DNA from: Escherichia coli
GTDB lineage: Bacteria; Pseudomonadota; Gammaproteobacteria; Enterobacterales; Enterobacteriaceae
Assembly: GCF_013315695.1 (NCBI RefSeq)
Contig: NZ_CP054353.1
Length of the DNA: 64,000 bases
Strand: one strand, 5' to 3'
The notes beneath the pieces were generated by a model. That model was given only the letters and a program-made list of their open reading frames with translations, did not search any database and was not told the DNA's origin. The position numbers were made by a program, and so were the translations under genes. Position 1 is the stretch's first letter. Each line of letters opens with the position of its first letter. This document shows positions 4,516-17,815 of this stretch, one piece after another.

Positions 4516-4592
4516 GGAGCGGTAGTTCAGTCGGTTAGAATACCTGCCTGTCACGCAGGGGGGCGCGGGTTCGAGTCCCGTCCGTTCCGCCA
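4516..4592 (+). tRNA. aspU: tRNA-Asp (anticodon GTC), distal tRNA of the rRNA operon
   Basis: GGAGCGGTAGTTCAGTCGGTTAGAATACCTGCCTGTCACGCAGGGGGGCGCGGGTTCGAGTCCCGTCCGTTCCGCCA; differs by one base (G at 4562) from the second tRNA-Asp copy at 13517..13593. Confidence 0.93.
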
Positions 4593-5281: not shown

Positions 5282-5336
5282 GGTGATGCTGCCAACTTAC
5301 TGATTTAGTGTATGATGGTGTTTTTGAGGTGCTCCA

Positions 5337-5612
5337 GTGGCTTCTGTTTCTATCAGCTGTCCCTCCTGTTCAGCTACTGACGGGGTGGTGCGTAACGGCA
5401 AAAGCACCGCCGGACATCAGCGCTATCTCTGCTCTCACTGCCGTAAAACATGGCAACTGCAGTTCACTTACACCGCTTCTCAACCCGGTACGCACCAGAA
5501 AATCATTGATATGGCCATGAATGGCGTTGGATGCCGGGCAACAGCCCGCATTATGGGCGTTGGCCTCAACACGATTTTACGTCACTTAAAAAACTCAGGC
5601 CGCAGTCGGTAA
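5337..5612 (+). CDS. insA: IS1 InsA (transposition inhibitor / DNA-binding protein)
   Basis: 91 aa [37 protein letters not shown]... zinc-finger-like N-terminus. Confidence 0.9.
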
Positions 5613-6034
5613 CCTCGCGCATACAGCCGGGCAGTGACGTCATCGTCTGCGCGGAAATGGACGAACAGTGGGGCTATGTCGGGGCTAAATCGCGCCAGCG
5701 CTGGCTGTTTTACGCGTATGACAGGCTCCGGAAGACGGTTGTTGCGCACGTATTCGGTGAACGCACTATGGCGACGCTGGGGCGTCTTATGAGCCTGCTG
5801 TCACCCTTTGACGTGGTGATATGGATGACGGATGGCTGGCCGCTGTATGAATCCCGCCTGAAGGGAAAGCTGCACGTAATCAGCAAGCGATATACGCAGC
5901 GAATTGAGCGGCATAACCTGAATCTGAGGCAGCACCTGGCACGGCTGGGACGGAAGTCGCTGTCGTTCTCAAAATCGGTGGAGCTGCATGACAAAGTCAT
6001 CGGGCATTATCTGAACATAAAACACTATCAATAA
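5531..6034 (+). CDS. insB: IS1 InsB frame (transposase made as InsAB' fusion by -1 frameshift)
   Basis: ORF in -1 frame relative to insA; slippery AAAAAAC at 5589..5595 in the insA/insB overlap. Confidence 0.85.
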
Positions 6035-6049
6035 GTTGGAGTCATTACC

Positions 6050-6058
6050 CCATATTAC
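6050..6058. repeat. IS1 target-site duplication, right copy (CCATATTAC)
   Basis: Identical to 5273..5281. Confidence 0.9.
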
Positions 6059-6331
6059 TTCCTATATGACGCTGGCGTATGGTAAGGCCCTGAAAGATGA
6101 GGTTATTGCTCGTATCGCAGCTAAACACAATGCGACTCCGGCACAAGTGATTCTGGCGTGGGCTATGGGGGAAGGTTACTCAGTAATTCCTTCTTCTACT
6201 AAACGTAAAAACCTGGAAAGTAATCTTAAGGCACAAAATTTACAGCTTGATGCCGAAGATAAAAAAGCGATCGCCGCACTGGATTGCAACGACCGCCTGG
6301 TTAGCCCGGAAGGTCTGGCTCCTGAATGGGA

Positions 6332-12588: not shown

Positions 12589-12652
12589 CTCTGGTAGACT
12601 TCCTGTAATTGAATCGAACTGTAAAACGACAAGTCTGACATAAATGACCGCT

Positions 12653-13384
12653 ATGAGCACTGCAATTACACGCCAGATCGTTCTCGATACCGAAACTACC
12701 GGTATGAACCAGATTGGTGCGCACTATGAAGGCCACAAGATCATTGAGATTGGTGCCGTTGAAGTGGTGAACCGTCGCCTGACGGGCAATAACTTCCATG
12801 TTTATCTCAAACCCGATCGGCTGGTGGATCCGGAAGCCTTTGGCGTACATGGTATTGCCGATGAATTTTTGCTCGATAAGCCCACGTTTGCAGAGGTAGC
12901 CGATGAGTTCATGGACTATATCCGCGGCGCGGAGCTGGTGATCCATAACGCAGCGTTCGATATCGGCTTTATGGACTACGAGTTTTCGTTGCTTAAGCGC
13001 GATATTCCGAAGACCAATACCTTCTGTAAGGTCACCGATAGCCTTGCGGTGGCGAGGAAAATGTTTCCCGGTAAGCGCAACAGCCTCGATGCGTTATGTG
13101 CCCGCTACGAAATAGATAACAGTAAACGAACGTTGCACGGGGCATTACTCGATGCCCAGATCCTTGCGGAAGTTTATCTGGCGATGACTGGTGGTCAAAC
13201 GTCGATGGCTTTTGCGATGGAAGGAGAGACACAACAGCAACAAGGTGAAACAACAATTCAGCGCATTGTGCGTCAGGCAAGTAAGTTACGCGTTGTTTTT
13301 GCGACAGATGAAGAGCTTGCGGCACATGAAGCCCGTCTCGATCTGGTGCAGAAGAAAGGCGGAAGCTGCCTCTGGCGGGCATAA
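12653..13384 (+). CDS. dnaQ: DNA polymerase III epsilon subunit (3'-5' proofreading exonuclease)
   Basis: 243 aa [19 protein letters not shown]...; divergent from rnhA. Confidence 0.93.
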
Positions 13385-13516
13385 ATACCTGTAAAAGGCG
13401 CTAAAAATAGCGACTTGGGCGATTTTTGCAGCAAACGATTCAAAAGATGAGAAAAACCGTTGACGAAGGGTGAGGCAATCCGTAATATTCGCCTCGTTCC
13501 CAACGGAACACAACGC

Positions 13517-13593
13517 GGAGCGGTAGTTCAGTCGGTTAGAATACCTGCCTGTCACGCAGGGGGTCGCGGGTTCGAGTCCCGTCCGTTCCGCCA
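13517..13593 (+). tRNA. aspV: tRNA-Asp (anticodon GTC)
   Basis: GGAGCGGTAGTTCAGTCGGTTAGAATACCTGCCTGTCACGCAGGGGGTCGCGGGTTCGAGTCCCGTCCGTTCCGCCA. Confidence 0.96.
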
Positions 13594-13602
13594 ATATTCA
13601 GA

Positions 13603-13640
13603 AAGCCCGAATCATTACTGATTCGGGCTTTCGTCGTTTA
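13603..13640 (+). terminator. Rho-independent terminator after aspV
   Basis: AAGCCCGAATC-attactg-ATTCGGGCTT followed by TCGTCGTTT. Confidence 0.65.
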
Positions 13641-13691
13641 AGTTCCAGAGAAAAATAGCCACGAAACTTATCTCGTAGCCATATTCACCCT

Positions 13692-14462
13692 CTAACGAAA
13701 TGTGAATTCATCCGCATCCCGCCATGCCGGAAACTTTTCTCTATACTCCCGCAACGCCACCATCGACAGCTCCGCATCAATGCGCGTTGCCTGATGCGCG
13801 TCGGCAGTAGCGATAATCTCGCCCTGTGGATTAATCACCCTGCTGTCACCACGATAATGGCAGCCGTTGCCATCGCTGCCGACGCGATTGCATCCCGCCA
13901 CATACGCCTGATTCTCAATCGCGCGGGCTGTCAGCAATGCCTGCCAGTGCAGAGAGCGCGGAGCAGGCCAGTTGGCGACGTACAGGGCGAGGTCATAATC
14001 GTTGAGATTGCGCGACCACACCGGAAAACGTAAGTCGTAGCACACCAGCGGCAAAATACGCCAGCCGCGCCATTCCACAATTACTCGCGCATTGCCCGCT
14101 TTATAATGCAGATGCTCATCTGCCATTCGGAACAGATGACGCTTATCATAAAAATGTACCGTGCCGCCCGGCTCAACCAGCAAAAAGCGGTTAACCGAAC
14201 CAGACTCCGTTTGTAATGCAACACTGCCTGCAATCAGCGCATTGCACCGCTGCGCTTTGGCTGTCATCCAGTTCACTACGTCATTTTGTGCTAGCGACGA
14301 AGCTGCCGCTTCCATGGCAAAGCCGCTGGTAAACATCTCCGGCAGAACGATCACATCGCGCCCGGTAATACCTTCCAGTTGACGATCAAAATGGCGCAGG
14401 TTGGCAGGGCCATCCATCCACACCAGTGGTTGCTGCAAAAGCGTAATCTTCAAACCAGGCAC
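13692..14462 (-). CDS. yafV: Carbon-nitrogen hydrolase family protein (omega-amidase-like)
   Basis: Nitrilase-superfamily ORF; GTG at 14462 preceded by SD AAGGAG preferred over track TTG start at 14471. Confidence 0.85.
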   Translation of the reverse strand: MPGLKITLLQQPLVWMDGPANLRHFDRQLEGITGRDVIVLPEMFTSGFAMEAAASSLAQNDVVNWMTAKAQRCNALIAGSVALQTESGSVNRFLLVEPGGTVHFYDKRHLFRMADEHLHYKAGNARVIVEWRGWRILPLVCYDLRFPVWSRNLNDYDLALYVANWPAPRSLHWQALLTARAIENQAYVAGCNRVGSDGNGCHYRGDSRVINPQGEIIATADAHQATRIDAELSMVALREYREKFPAWRDADEFTFR

Positions 14463-14615
14463 GGTGTACAACTCCTTTATGCGAAGGGTTTTATAACTCT
14501 AACACCTTATCAGGCAGTTGCCTTAGCGCAGAATAAATTGATAACAAATGCTGATATTGGAAATATCTGATTTGCAAATTATCGTGTTATCGCCAGGCTT
14601 TAGGAGGTTAATAAC

Positions 14616-15089
14616 ATGGGCAGGATAAGCTCGGGAGGAATGATGTTTAAGGCAATAACGACAGTCGCCGCTCTGGTCATCGCCACCAGTGCAATGGCGC
14701 AGGATGATTTAACCATTAGCAGCCTGGCAAAGGGCGAAACCACCAAAGCTGCATTTAATCAGATGGTACAAGGGCATAAGCTGCCAGCCTGGGTGATGAA
14801 AGGCGGTACTTATACCCCCGCACAAACCGTGACATTGGGAGATGAGACGTATCAGGTGATGAGCGCGTGCAAACCGCATGACTGTGGCTCGCAACGTATC
14901 GCTGTGATGTGGTCCGAGAAATCTAATCAGATGACGGGGCTGTTCTCGACCATTGATGAGAAAACGTCGCAAGAGAAACTCACCTGGCTGAATGTGAACG
15001 ATGCGCTTTCGATTGATGGTAAAACGGTGCTGTTCGCGGCGTTGACCGGCAGCCTGGAAAACCATCCGGATGGCTTTAATTTTAAATAA
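14616..15089 (+). CDS. ivy: Inhibitor of vertebrate lysozyme (periplasmic)
   Basis: 157 aa; signal peptide; conserved CKPHDCG loop motif. Confidence 0.9.
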   Translation: MGRISSGGMMFKAITTVAALVIATSAMAQDDLTISSLAKGETTKAAFNQMVQGHKLPAWVMKGGTYTPAQTVTLGDETYQVMSACKPHDCGSQRIAVMWSEKSNQMTGLFSTIDEKTSQEKLTWLNVNDALSIDGKTVLFAALTGSLENHPDGFNFK

Positions 15090-15102
15090 TTAGCCGATAA
15101 AG

Positions 15103-15125
15103 AAACGGAGCCTTTCGGCTCCGTT
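15103..15125. terminator. Bidirectional terminator between convergent ivy and fadE
   Basis: AACGGAGCC-tttc-GGCTCCGTT perfect hairpin. Confidence 0.65.
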
Positions 15126-15131
15126 ATTCAA

Positions 15132-17576
15132 TTACGCGGCTTCAACTTTTCGCACTTTCTCCGGCAACTTTACCGGCTTCGTCGCAAGCTCTTCCGGATC
15201 AAAGTCATCAACATTAATACTGCGCAGACGGCTTTCTTCAGCTTTCACAAGAATAGCTGCTTCATCTTTATCAATCAGCCCCTTCGCCAGCGCGTTGTGC
15301 GCCAGTTCATCCAGACGGGTAAACGGCAGGTTTTTACCCAACTCTTTACAGATCCGCTGATGAATCGGGTCGGCGGCAATCACATCCACCAGCGCCTCTT
15401 CCAGTAAACCAACCGGGTTATGCTTGCTCGGCGTCAGGTACTGACCGCGGCCAATACGTGAGCGGGTGGCGTTTGGCACTTGTAAAATCTTCGCCACTTT
15501 ATGATCCAGCTTGTCAGACGGTGCCAGATAATGACGTCCGGTCGGGAAGATCACCACATTCAGCAGCCCGGCAACCACGCGGTTCGGGAAGTTTTGCAGT
15601 AAATCATCCATCGCCTGTTCTGCCTGATACAGCGCATCCTGTACGCCCCAGTGCACCAGCGGCAGGTCGGCTTCATTACGGCCTTCGTCGTCATAACGCT
15701 TCAGAACGGCAGAGGCGAGGTAAAGCTGGCTTAAAATATCCCCCAGACGTGCCGAGATACGCTCGCGACGTTTCAGGCTGCCGCCCAGGACCGCCATCGA
15801 GACATCAGAAAGCAGGGCGAGGTTGGCGCTCAGGCGGTTCAGATGCTGATAATAACGTTTAGTGGCATCGCCAGTTGGTGTGCTGCTGGTTAAACCGCGC
15901 GTCAGGCCCAGCCAGAAGCTGCGAACTTTGTTGCTACCGACGTGACCGATATGTTTGAACAGCAGTTTATCGAACGCGTTGACGTCATTGTTCTTCGCCG
16001 CTTCCATCTCTTCCAGCACGTACGGATGGCAACGAATCGCTCCTTGTCCGAAGATCATCATGCTGCGGGTCAGAATGTTGGCCCCTTCAACGGTGATGGC
16101 AATCGGTGCGCCCTGGTAAGCTCGTGCCAGGAAGTTGCTCTGCCCGAGCATAATGCCTTTACCACCAGTGATATCCATCGCATCAATAATCGACTGCTGC
16201 CCACGGTGGGTACAATGATACTTAACGATAGCCGACAGCACGGCAGGTTTTTCACCGATCATAATGCCGTAGGTAATCAGCGATGCCGCAGCATCCATTA
16301 CATAAGCGTTTCCGGCAATACGCGCCAGCGGCTCTTCAATCCCTTCCATCTTACCAATAGAGATTTTGAACTGACGGCGGATGTGCGCATACGCACCCGT
16401 TGCCAGCGCTACCGATTTCACGCCGCCGGTTGAGTTGGAAGGCAGGGTGATACCGCGGCCTACCGAGAGGCACTCCACTAGCATCCGCCAGCCTTGCCCG
16501 GCCATTTTTGGTCCGCCGATAATGTAATCGATCGGTACGAAGACATCTTTACCGCGCGTCGGTCCGTTCTGGAACGGCACGTTCAGCGGGAAGTGGCGAC
16601 GACCAATTTCCACGCCCGGCGTGGTGGTCGGGATCAGCGCACAGGTAATACCTAAATCTTCTGCGCCACCCAGCAGTTTTTCCGGGTCGGAGAGTTTAAA
16701 CGCCAGACCAAGCACGGTCGCAATCGGTGCGAGCGTAATGTAACGTTTGTTCCAGGTCAGACGCATCCCCAGCACCTGCTGGCCCTGCCATTCCCCCATG
16801 CAGACAATCCCGGTATCCGGGATAGCGCCTGCATCGGAACCCGCTTCCGGGCTGGTCAGTGCAAAGCAAGGGATTTCCTGACCACGCGCCAGACGCGGCA
16901 GATAGTGATCTTTCTGCTCGTCAGTGCCGTAATGTTGCAGTAGCTCACCCGGGCCTAATGAGTTTGGCACGCCGACGGTAATCGCCAGGATCCCGCTCAC
17001 GCCGGAGAGTTTTTGCAGCACGCGAGACTGGGCATAAGCCGAGAACTCCAGCCCGCCGTACTCTTTTTTGATGATCATCGCGAAGAAGCGATGCTCTTTA
17101 AGATACGCCCACAGCTCCGGCGGCAAATCCGCCAGCTCATGGGTAATCTGGAAATCATTCGCCATCCGGCAGGCTTCTTCTACCGGACCGTCGAGAAACG
17201 CTTGCTCTTCAGCGGTCAGGCGCGGCTGCGGATAGTTATGCAGCTTTTTCCAGTCCGGCTTGCCCTGGAACAAATCGCCTTCCCACCAGGTGGTGCCCGC
17301 ATCAATCGCTTCTTTCTCAGTGCGCGACATCGGCGGCATCACCTTACGGAAACCGCGAAATACCGGCGCGGAAATCATCGACTTACGCATAGGCGCAAAG
17401 TTAAATGGCACGAGGATAATGGCCAGAGGCACCAGTACCCACGCCGACCACAGACCAGCAACGCCGAGTGCGGCTGTCCAGGCGAGCAAAATCAGACTGC
17501 TGATAAATAAGCTCACGCGGTGATAGAACAACGCGCCGAGCAGGACAACCGTAGCGAGAATACTCAAAATCATCAT
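15132..17576 (-). CDS. fadE: Acyl-CoA dehydrogenase
   Basis: 814 aa from ATG-ATG at 17576 ([14 protein letters not shown]...); SD AAGGGG upstream; track ORF begins at an upstream TTG. Confidence 0.93.
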
Positions 17577-17597
17577 AACGAAAAGCCCCTTACTTGT

Positions 17598-17614
17598 AGG
17601 AGGTCTGACCACTT
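17598..17614 (-). promoter_or_regulatory. Putative FadR operator in fadE promoter region
   Basis: Minus-strand AAGTGGTCAGACCTCCT resembles FadR consensus (CTGGTCnGACCTG core), about 21 nt upstream of fadE start. Confidence 0.5.
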
Positions 17615-17815
17615 GTGATGATATGGTTGTAGTGGATGTAAAAACATTTAGCAATACGTTTACAATATAATTACAACAAAGCTCACATTGTTGCTGTTTT
17701 TATCCGCACTTCAGGTCAAAAAGTCCTGGTCATAGCACCTGCCCGTACTTCTCGCTTTTGGCGGTATCCGGTACACTGCATTTTGTCTATTACATTTATG
17801 CTGAAGGATATCCTC

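What the first reader, a model, noticed from the sequence alone, without database searches (positions are those of the whole stretch)
13594..13691. tRNA-Asp integration hotspot appears unoccupied
aspV is followed after ~100 bp by yafV with only a terminator between them, whereas this tRNA 3' end carries inserted genes in some strains. The observation is a negative one and rests on remembered comparative knowledge.
Basis: established knowledge. Interest (0 to 1): 0.25.

Follow-up and report, generated by a model that had tools for sequence, protein, structure and literature searches.

The report
Empty aspV–yafV island site
In this E. coli strain the tRNA-Asp gene aspV sits 98 bases from yafV with only two back-to-back transcription terminators between them, the original island-free layout that about 14% of complete E. 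coli genomes keep; this was already known and is ordinary.

Summary
aspV (tRNA-Asp GTC, 13517-13593, +) is followed after 98 bp by the stop codon of yafV (13692-14462, -). The spacer holds two convergent terminator hairpins, not one, and nothing else. There is no gene, no integrase, no IS remnant and no second copy of the tRNA 3' end.

Of 5,426 complete E. coli genomes, 771 (14%) have this contiguous dnaQ-aspV-yafV layout, including E2348/69 and ST131. About 77% carry yafT, the first gene of the type VI secretion (T6SS) island or its K-12 remnant. Smaller groups carry a CFT073-type island (288) or a second T6SS type (88).

The empty layout looks ancestral. Ten other enterobacterial lineages have the same tight junction, with a conserved aspV terminator showing three compensatory pairs. 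A divergent Escherichia lineage has the same two-hairpin spacer, at the same 94% identity as its flanks.

The occupied alleles examined carry no tRNA-fragment repeats either. The better evidence is the intact ancestral terminator pair and the absence of the ISAs1 (H-repeat) scar that abuts yafV in the five occupied genomes examined.

The aspV hotspot and its emptiness in E2348/69 are published. Interest is low.

The parts
12644..13384 (+). dnaQ, the conserved left-flank core gene
   Evidence: ORF. Annotated dnaQ in the 100%-identical strain MSI001. Found next to aspV in 16 of the 80 yafV loci from other species.
13460..13489 (+). Sigma-70-like promoter of aspV (TTGACG, 17-18 nt spacer, TAATAT)
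   Evidence: Consensus scan, (9 of 12 matches). The link to aspV is inferred from position only.
13517..13593 (+). aspV, tRNA-Asp (GTC), intact
   Evidence: ARAGORN. Rfam RF00005 at 67.7 bits.
13594..13600 (+). 7-nt tRNA trailer (ATATTCA). The ATTCA core (ATTC in CFT073) is present in every allele examined; the first one or two bases vary, and the yafT-type and CFT073-type islands begin right after it.
   Evidence: Junction alignments.
13601..13639 (+). aspV terminator: a 14-bp hairpin (13601-13632) plus its CGTCGTTT tail. It is ancestral, and the AR_0077-type T6SS genomes keep it.
   Evidence: Fold of -23.7 kcal/mol, z -7.75. Perfect inverted repeat I1. Conserved in 14 sequences from 12 lineages, with 3 compensatory pairs. 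Homology to AR_0077, GmM077 and Z0117EC0005 runs to 13639. The T-tail is weak (4 T in 8 nt), so the strict terminator scan did not call it.
13640..13704 (.). 65-bp segment found only in 'empty' genomes. It holds the yafV terminator and the last three codons plus stop of yafV.
   Evidence: Full-length matches to 13596-13704 occur in only 756 genomes. The segment is absent from K-12, CFT073, AR_0077 and Z0117EC0005. It is homologous to the spacer of the divergent Escherichia locus L006.
13645..13682 (-). yafV intrinsic terminator: a 12-bp hairpin (13682-13655) followed by a T-run on the - strand
   Evidence: Terminator scan hit. Fold of -20.1 kcal/mol, z -5.0. Nine of the ten outgroup spacers (all but Trabulsiella) and L006 show a hairpin-forming stretch of different sequence at the same place on inspection of the alignment.
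13692..14462 (-). yafV (2-oxoglutaramate amidase), ending ...DEFTFR* where occupied alleles have ...DEFRLW* or ...DEFRLL*
   Evidence: NCBIfam PRK10438 at E 8.5e-165. C-terminus comparison.

Best explanation
Window 13594-13691 is the island-free, ancestral-type allele of the enterobacterial dnaQ-aspV-yafV junction. The 98-bp spacer consists of two convergent Rho-independent terminators. One ends the single-gene aspV transcript on the + strand; the other ends yafV on the - strand. Nothing has been inserted and there is no deletion scar. In most E. coli, the stretch from 6-7 nt (or 46 nt) past the tRNA to codon -3 of yafV has been replaced by a T6SS/Rhs/H-repeat island or its derivatives. This strain carries the allele that was never interrupted.

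Shown here: the coordinates, the hairpins, their conservation, and the population counts. Inferred: that the hairpins terminate transcription, and that the empty state is inherited rather than restored.
For: (1) Anatomy: the tRNA, two strong hairpins and the yafV stop account for all 98 bp.

(2) Ten other enterobacterial lineages have dnaQ-aspV-yafV with gaps of 54-217 bp (nine of them 54-126 bp): Leclercia, Pseudocitrobacter, Pseudescherichia vulneris, Escherichia sp. ESNIH1, Enterobacter sp. ENT03, Trabulsiella, Kluyvera, Siccibacter, K. oxytoca and isolate RIT691. The aspV terminator aligns across all of them, with compensatory changes at 3 of 14 pairs.

(3) Locus L006, a divergent Escherichia (94-96% identical in four of the five flanking segments, 91% in yafV), has the same two-hairpin spacer. 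It aligns over 295 nt at 94.2%, so it has diverged in step with its flanks, as vertical descent predicts.

(4) All five occupied genomes examined at the right junction (K-12, Z0117EC0005, CFT073, AR_0077, and E. albertii) have an ISAs1 (H-repeat) end abutting yafV at the same base, giving a different yafV C-terminus. The window has neither feature.

(5) No tRNA 3' fragment, integrase or IS lies in the spacer.

(6) 771 of 5,426 complete genomes share the layout, including E2348/69 and ST131. This agrees with the LF82 genome paper, which lists 0 ORFs of the aspV T6SS island in E2348/69 (PMC2941450).
Against: The spacer is 100% identical to E2348/69 and 99.1% identical to ST131 over 109 bp, although the yafV body differs from theirs by 3.6%. 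The left flank is 99.3-99.8% identical to the occupied strain AR_0077. The allele may therefore have moved between lineages by homologous recombination rather than descended strictly vertically in this strain. The occupied state is also old, because the H-repeat/yafV junction is shared with E. albertii, so polarity within Escherichia is not settled by parsimony alone. Terminator function was not measured, and the aspV hairpin has only a weak T-tail.
Confidence: 0.9

Rival explanations
1. The empty allele was restored by allelic replacement. This strain's lineage once carried the aspV island and lost it when homologous recombination in dnaQ and in yafV-fadE brought in the island-free allele from another E. 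coli. The sequence is still the ancestral-type allele, but its presence here is secondary.
For: The spacer is 100% identical to E2348/69 and 99.1% to ST131 over 109 bp, whereas the adjoining yafV body is only 96.3-96.4% identical to theirs; about 4 differences would be expected and 0-1 are seen. The left flank from gloB through the aspV terminator is 99.3-99.8% identical to AR_0077, which is occupied, while the right flank is 96.7-98.4% identical. That is a mosaic pattern. All flanks are unusually diverse, with fadE 95.5-97.6% identical between E. coli strains.
Against: 109 bp is too short for a firm test; the Poisson probability of 0-1 differences at 3.6% divergence is about 0.02-0.10. Constraint on the two terminator hairpins could also keep the spacer conserved. 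No recombination breakpoints were mapped.
Confidence: 0.25
2. Deletion scar: an island was present and was cut out by an IS-mediated or illegitimate deletion, leaving a short junction that only looks empty.
For: Deletion does happen at this locus. K-12 keeps only yafT-ykfM, a gene fragment and an ISAs1 fragment (2.4 kb) where other strains have a full T6SS. Z0117EC0005 keeps a truncated tssA and an ISAs1 fragment.
Against: Every base of the spacer is accounted for by sequence homologous to outgroups that lack the island. There is no ISAs1 end, no yafT or tss fragment and no tRNA fragment. The yafV C-terminus is of the non-island type. A deletion could not recreate the 65-bp segment 13640-13704 that all occupied alleles lack.
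Confidence: 0.03
3. Vacant attB: the aspV 3' end plus trailer (…CCA-NTATTC) is the core of a site-specific recombination site used by integrase-carrying elements, and this strain has a free, functional attB.
For: Two unrelated island sequences, yafT type and CFT073 type, begin at almost the same base, +7 and +6 after the CCA. aspV is called a hot-spot in both E. coli and Salmonella (PMC2907695; PMC5363993).
Against: No integrase gene lies next to aspV in any occupied locus examined. In CFT073 the only integrase fragment is 22 kb away, and the CP4-like module faces the wrong way. No attR-like repeat of the tRNA end occurs in K-12, in the complete AR_0077 island or in the 80 kb of the CFT073 island scanned. 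The right junctions are an IS end inside yafV, not an att site. The shared left breakpoint can be explained by selection to keep the tRNA and its 3' processing trailer.
Confidence: 0.05

Closest known systems
Island-free aspV locus of EPEC E2348/69 and of ST131
   Same: The same contiguous dnaQ-aspV-yafV arrangement. The 109-bp spacer query is 100% identical in E2348/69 and 99.1% in ST131 strain 751. The LF82 genome paper lists 0 of 29 PAI I (aspV, T6SS) ORFs in E2348/69 (PMC2941450).
   Different: The flanking genes differ by 2-4%. This strain also carries a complete Flag-2 cluster further downstream, so it belongs to a different lineage.
aspV-associated T6SS island of E. coli (LF82 PAI I; the 37-kb aspV-associated T6SS cluster of EDL933; the K-12 yafT-ykfM remnant)
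   Same: The same chromosomal site between aspV and yafV, with the same flanking core genes.
   Different: The window has none of the island: no yafT, hcp, vasL or tss genes, no Rhs, and no ISAs1 (H-repeat) fragment. In island carriers, window 13601-13704 (or 13640-13704) is replaced.
PAI-CFT073-aspV (the 100-kb mosaic island of UPEC CFT073)
   Same: The same insertion site. Its left junction is 6 nt past the tRNA and its right junction is the same ISAs1 fragment at yafV.
   Different: It carries cdiA, pic, an iron-uptake system and CP4-like modules, all absent from the window.
Salmonella SPI-6 and SPI-20 at aspV
   Same: The same tRNA gene serves as a hot-spot in a neighbouring genus, again for T6SS islands. 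SPI-20 lacks obvious direct repeats (PMC2907695).
   Different: A different genus with different islands. The Salmonella diarizonae locus fetched here has 2.9 kb between aspV and yafV, which was not analysed further.
Tight dnaQ-aspV-yafV junction of other Enterobacteriaceae (Leclercia, Kluyvera, Trabulsiella, Pseudescherichia and others)
   Same: The same gene order. The aspV terminator hairpin is homologous, and in most of them a second hairpin lies downstream of yafV.
   Different: The second hairpin and the last codons of yafV are not conserved in sequence outside Escherichia.

Membership tests
Integrase-type genomic island integrated at a tRNA gene (occupied attB) | Tyrosine integrase gene next to the tRNA gene | tested here: not met
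   Only 98 bp separate aspV from yafV. The spacer has no room for a gene.
Integrase-type genomic island integrated at a tRNA gene (occupied attB) | Direct repeat of the tRNA 3' end (attR) downstream | tested here: not met
   There is no extra match to the 14- to 30-nt 3' end, with 1-6 mismatches allowed, anywhere in the 64-kb window; only the aspU gene itself matches.
aspV-associated T6SS/Rhs island of E. coli | yafT and T6SS genes (hcp, vasL, tss) between aspV and yafV | tested here: not met
   No ORFs fit in the spacer. BLAST of the window junction against the K-12, AR_0077, CFT073 and Z0117EC0005 islands matched only the flanks.
aspV-associated T6SS/Rhs island of E. coli | ISAs1 (H-repeat) end abutting yafV, giving a YafV C-terminus of ...DEFRLW or ...DEFRLL | tested here: not met
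   The window's YafV ends ...DEFTFR*, and the sequence downstream of its stop codon is the terminator hairpin, not ISAs1.
Ancestral island-free dnaQ-aspV-yafV junction of Enterobacteriaceae | dnaQ, aspV and convergent yafV within about 50-220 bp | tested here: met
   The gap is 98 bp in the window. It is 54-217 bp in ten other lineages and 105 bp in the divergent Escherichia L006.
Ancestral island-free dnaQ-aspV-yafV junction of Enterobacteriaceae | Conserved aspV trailer and terminator hairpin directly after the tRNA | tested here: met
   All 14 pairs are kept in 14 sequences apart from one U-U mismatch, and 3 pairs carry compensatory changes.
Rho-independent terminator (aspV, + strand) | GC-rich hairpin followed by a U-tract | tested here: inconclusive
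   The hairpin is strong (-23.7 kcal/mol). The tail CGUCGUUU has only 4 U in 8 nt and was not called by the scan. Function was not measured.
Rho-independent terminator (yafV, - strand) | GC-rich hairpin followed by a U-tract | tested here: met
   The scan reports a 12-pair stem with a 4-nt loop followed by TTTTTCTC. The fold is -20.1 kcal/mol, z -5.0. Function was not measured.

The most novel reading that the evidence does not exclude
The empty and occupied states of the aspV-yafV junction are both older than E. coli. The ISAs1/yafV junction of the occupied allele is shared with E. albertii. The two-hairpin empty allele is shared with a divergent Escherichia lineage and with other genera. Under this reading the locus is a long-lived, trans-species presence/absence polymorphism. 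The empty allele would be passed between lineages by homologous recombination in the flanking core genes, in effect 'curing' the T6SS island, rather than by integrase-mediated gain and excision.
Probability: 0.3. Interest if true: 0.3.

Novelty: already known. Interest (0 to 1): 0.08.

Why it matters
It matters little beyond annotation. It shows that this strain lacks the aspV-linked T6SS/Rhs island that most E. coli carry, which bears on predicting its inter-bacterial competition and virulence gene content. It also gives a clean reference sequence for the uninterrupted junction. The useful methodological point is that a missing tRNA-fragment repeat does not show that this hotspot is unoccupied, because the islands examined there have no such repeats. 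The intact ancestral terminator pair and the missing ISAs1 scar are the informative markers.

Tried and rejected
(1) Duplicated tRNA 3' ends were sought in the window and in occupied loci (K-12, the complete AR_0077 island, both ends of the CFT073 island, four other yafT-type left junctions, and the Salmonella, Citrobacter and E. albertii loci). None was found, so the test does not discriminate.

(2) An 11-mer, CGGGCTTTCGT, is shared between the aspV terminator and the K-12 sequence upstream of yafV. I considered it as a possible terminator remnant at the right junction. I rejected it: BLAST E is 0.5, it lies inside the ISAs1 transposase fragment, and the surrounding sequence does not align.

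(3) The 7-mer ATATTCA occurs at 13594 and again at 13681, bracketing both hairpins. I considered it as a target-site duplication or att core. I rejected it because the terminator between the copies is ancestral across genera, the island right junction is at 13705 and not 13687, and L006 has ATAATCA at the second position.

(4) Rfam with a permissive threshold found only the tRNA. The sub-threshold hits (Thr_leader at 20 bits against a cutoff of 55; HPnc0260 at 29.6 against 59) merely reflect the hairpins.

(5) The first literature search, on 'aspV' or 'yafV', returned almost only apple stem pitting virus papers. The refined search worked.

(6) Typing the yafT-type left junction with a 199-nt AT-rich query undercounted (2,860 genomes). 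The yafT coding sequence gave 4,181.

Full report
**1. What is in the sequence**

ARAGORN finds four tRNA genes in the window. Two are tRNA-Asp(GTC): aspU at 4516-4592, at the end of an rRNA operon, and aspV at 13517-13593 on the + strand. Rfam confirms the tRNA at 67.7 bits.

Upstream lies dnaQ (12644-13384, +), with a sigma-70-like promoter at 13460-13489. Downstream, on the - strand, an ORF ends at 13692. It is YafV: NCBIfam PRK10438 matches at E 8.5e-165, and it is annotated yafV in strain MSI001, which is 100% identical over the 1.2 kb around the junction.

The finding's coordinates, 13594-13691, are therefore exactly the 98-bp aspV-yafV spacer.

**2. What the spacer contains**

It contains two hairpins rather than one.
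- The first is a perfect 14-bp inverted repeat at 13601-13632. It folds at -23.7 kcal/mol (z = -7.75) on the + strand and is followed by CGTCGTTT.
- The second is a 12-bp stem at 13655-13682. On the - strand it is followed by a T-run, the terminator scan calls it, and it folds at -20.1 kcal/mol (z = -5.0).

Together with a 7-nt tRNA trailer, these account for the whole spacer. The simplest reading is a pair of convergent intrinsic terminators, one for aspV and one for yafV. Termination itself is inferred, not measured, and the aspV hairpin has a weak T-tail.

**3. No sign of a past integration**

No second copy of the tRNA 3' end occurs in the 64 kb. The 14- to 30-mers were tested with 1-6 mismatches allowed, and shuffled controls gave 0-2 hits. 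The spacer has no room for an ORF. BLAST of the junction against four different occupied loci matched only the flanks.

**4. How E. coli genomes compare**

Of 5,426 complete E. coli genomes, 771 (14%) match contiguously across dnaQ-aspV-yafV. The private part of the spacer is present at full length in 756. They include E2348/69 and O25b:H4-ST131. The collection is biased toward clinical isolates, so 14% is not a population frequency.

The other genomes fall into at least three configurations.
- **yafT type.** The order is aspV, yafT, effector/immunity genes, hcp, vasL and onward. All occupied genomes sampled evenly down the ranking were of this type, including O157:H7. K-12 has a 2.4-kb remnant: yafT, ykfM, a gene fragment and an ISAs1 fragment. 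yafT is present in 4,181 genomes, or 77%.
- **CFT073 type.** This is the 100-kb mosaic island with CP4-like modules, cdiA and pic. Its left-junction sequence is present in 288 genomes.
- **AR_0077 type.** This is a 41-kb T6SS (tssA through tssM, vgrG, rhs, ISAs1) that keeps the aspV terminator. Its left-junction sequence is present in 88 genomes.

The four counts sum to 5,328 of 5,426. The categories come from separate marker searches and may overlap.

**5. Where the junctions lie**

Homology to the window ends at 13600 in K-12, at 13599 in CFT073 and at 13639 in the AR_0077 type. In the E. coli loci compared by BLAST (K-12, Z0117EC0005, CFT073) it resumes at 13705, inside the last three codons of yafV.

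In K-12, Z0117EC0005, CFT073 and AR_0077, the sequence abutting yafV is an ISAs1 (H-repeat) element or fragment. It supplies a different C-terminus...DEFRLW* or ...DEFRLL*, against ...DEFTFR* in the window. E. albertii NBRC 107761 has the same ISAs1/yafV junction.

So the insertions are not in the tRNA 3' end. No integrase lies beside aspV in the genomes examined. No tRNA-fragment repeat occurs in K-12, in the complete AR_0077 island or in the 80 kb of the CFT073 island scanned. This matches the remark of Blondel et al. that the aspV-linked SPI-20 has no obvious direct repeats (PMC2907695).

Better markers of an uninterrupted allele are the intact terminator pair and the absence of the ISAs1 scar.

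**6. Is the empty state ancestral?**

A scan of one genome per species with YafV returned 80 loci. dnaQ-aspV-yafV with a gap of only 54-217 bp occurs in ten non-Escherichia lineages: Leclercia, Pseudocitrobacter, Pseudescherichia vulneris, Escherichia sp. ESNIH1, Enterobacter sp. ENT03, Trabulsiella, Kluyvera, Siccibacter, Klebsiella oxytoca and isolate RIT691.

Their aspV trailer and terminator align with the window's. The 14-pair stem is kept in all 14 sequences, with compensatory changes at three pairs. Most of these spacers, and L006, also show a second hairpin-forming stretch, unrelated in sequence, downstream of yafV.

Locus L006 is a species-level divergent Escherichia. It is 94-96% identical to the window in four of the five flanking segments and 91% in yafV. 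It has the same two-hairpin spacer, aligning over 295 nt at 94.2%. The empty allele has thus diverged in step with its flanks. The 65-bp segment 13640-13704, which every occupied E. coli allele examined lacks, is old.

A deletion could not have recreated that segment, so the 'scar' reading is rejected.

**7. What stays open**

The occupied state is also old, because its junction is shared with E. albertii. The window's spacer is 100% identical to E2348/69 and 99.1% to ST131, although the adjoining yafV body differs from theirs by 3.6%. Its left flank is 99.3-99.8% identical to the occupied strain AR_0077.

This mosaic pattern fits transfer of the empty allele between lineages by homologous recombination. 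However, 109 bp is too short to prove it, and constraint on the hairpins is an alternative explanation.

The near-coincidence of the yafT-type and CFT073-type left breakpoints (+7 and +6) could hint at a recombination core. With no integrase and no attR, selection to keep the tRNA and its processing trailer is the more economical explanation.

**8. Comparison with the literature**

aspV is described as a known hot-spot in Salmonella, for SPI-6 and SPI-20 (PMC2907695). It is described as the site of T6SS islands in EHEC EDL933 (PMC5363993), in EAEC 042 (PMC2808357) and in LF82 and most B2 ExPEC. E2348/69 has 0 of the 29 island ORFs (PMC2941450).

Both the hotspot and its emptiness in some strains are already published.

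**9. Verdict**

This is an ordinary, already-known configuration. Interest is 0.08.

Noticed in passing
window 24138-59847: A 35.7-kb segment is absent from the closest genome, MSI001, where only a truncated flhA-like pseudogene abuts lafU. In the window it encodes FlhA, FlhB, FliF, FliI, FlgE, FlgK, FliD and MotA homologues, which indicates a complete Flag-2 lateral-flagella cluster. It also explains why thrW is not in the window.
   Followed up: partly
window 4563 (aspU, 4516-4592) versus 13564 (aspV): aspU differs from aspV by one base at tRNA position 48: T to G, extending a G-run, in the variable-loop region. Only 35 of 5,428 E. coli records carry a tRNA-Asp copy with this variant, scattered across strains including some O157:H7. 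It may be a rare polymorphism or a homopolymer sequencing error.
   Followed up: partly
window 5282-6049: A 768-bp IS1 copy, 99.3% identical to the IS1B of MSI001, lies in the region after rrnH, at a place where MSI001 has none. MSI001 instead has ISKpn26 in mltD, which is intact in the window.
   Followed up: no
window 13594-13600 and 13681-13687: The 7-mer ATATTCA occurs directly after the tRNA and again 4 nt before the yafV stop, bracketing both terminator hairpins. It is probably chance: the divergent Escherichia L006 has ATAATCA at the second site, and island right junctions lie at 13705.
   Followed up: yes
window 13705-17654 (yafV, ivy, fadE) compared with L001, L003, L087, L092, L096, L097: The core genes to the right of the hotspot are unusually diverse among E. 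coli: yafV is 95.9-97.9% identical and the fadE 3' part 95.5-97.6% identical between strains. Groupings are mosaic and do not follow empty versus occupied status. This suggests frequent recombination around the locus.
   Followed up: partly
L007 (E. albertii NBRC 107761), about 5440-6060 in window orientation: E. albertii has an ISAs1 (H-repeat) element abutting yafV at the same base as occupied E. coli. The right-hand island junction therefore either predates the split of the two species or has been exchanged between them.
   Followed up: partly
L086 (CFT073) 8631-31638: The CP4-like module next to aspV in CFT073 (DUF4942, cbtA/yeeU, an antirestriction gene and others) faces the tRNA tail-to-tail. 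The only integrase fragment is 22 kb away. The module is therefore inverted relative to the usual order of tRNA, integrase, then the rest of the island.
   Followed up: no
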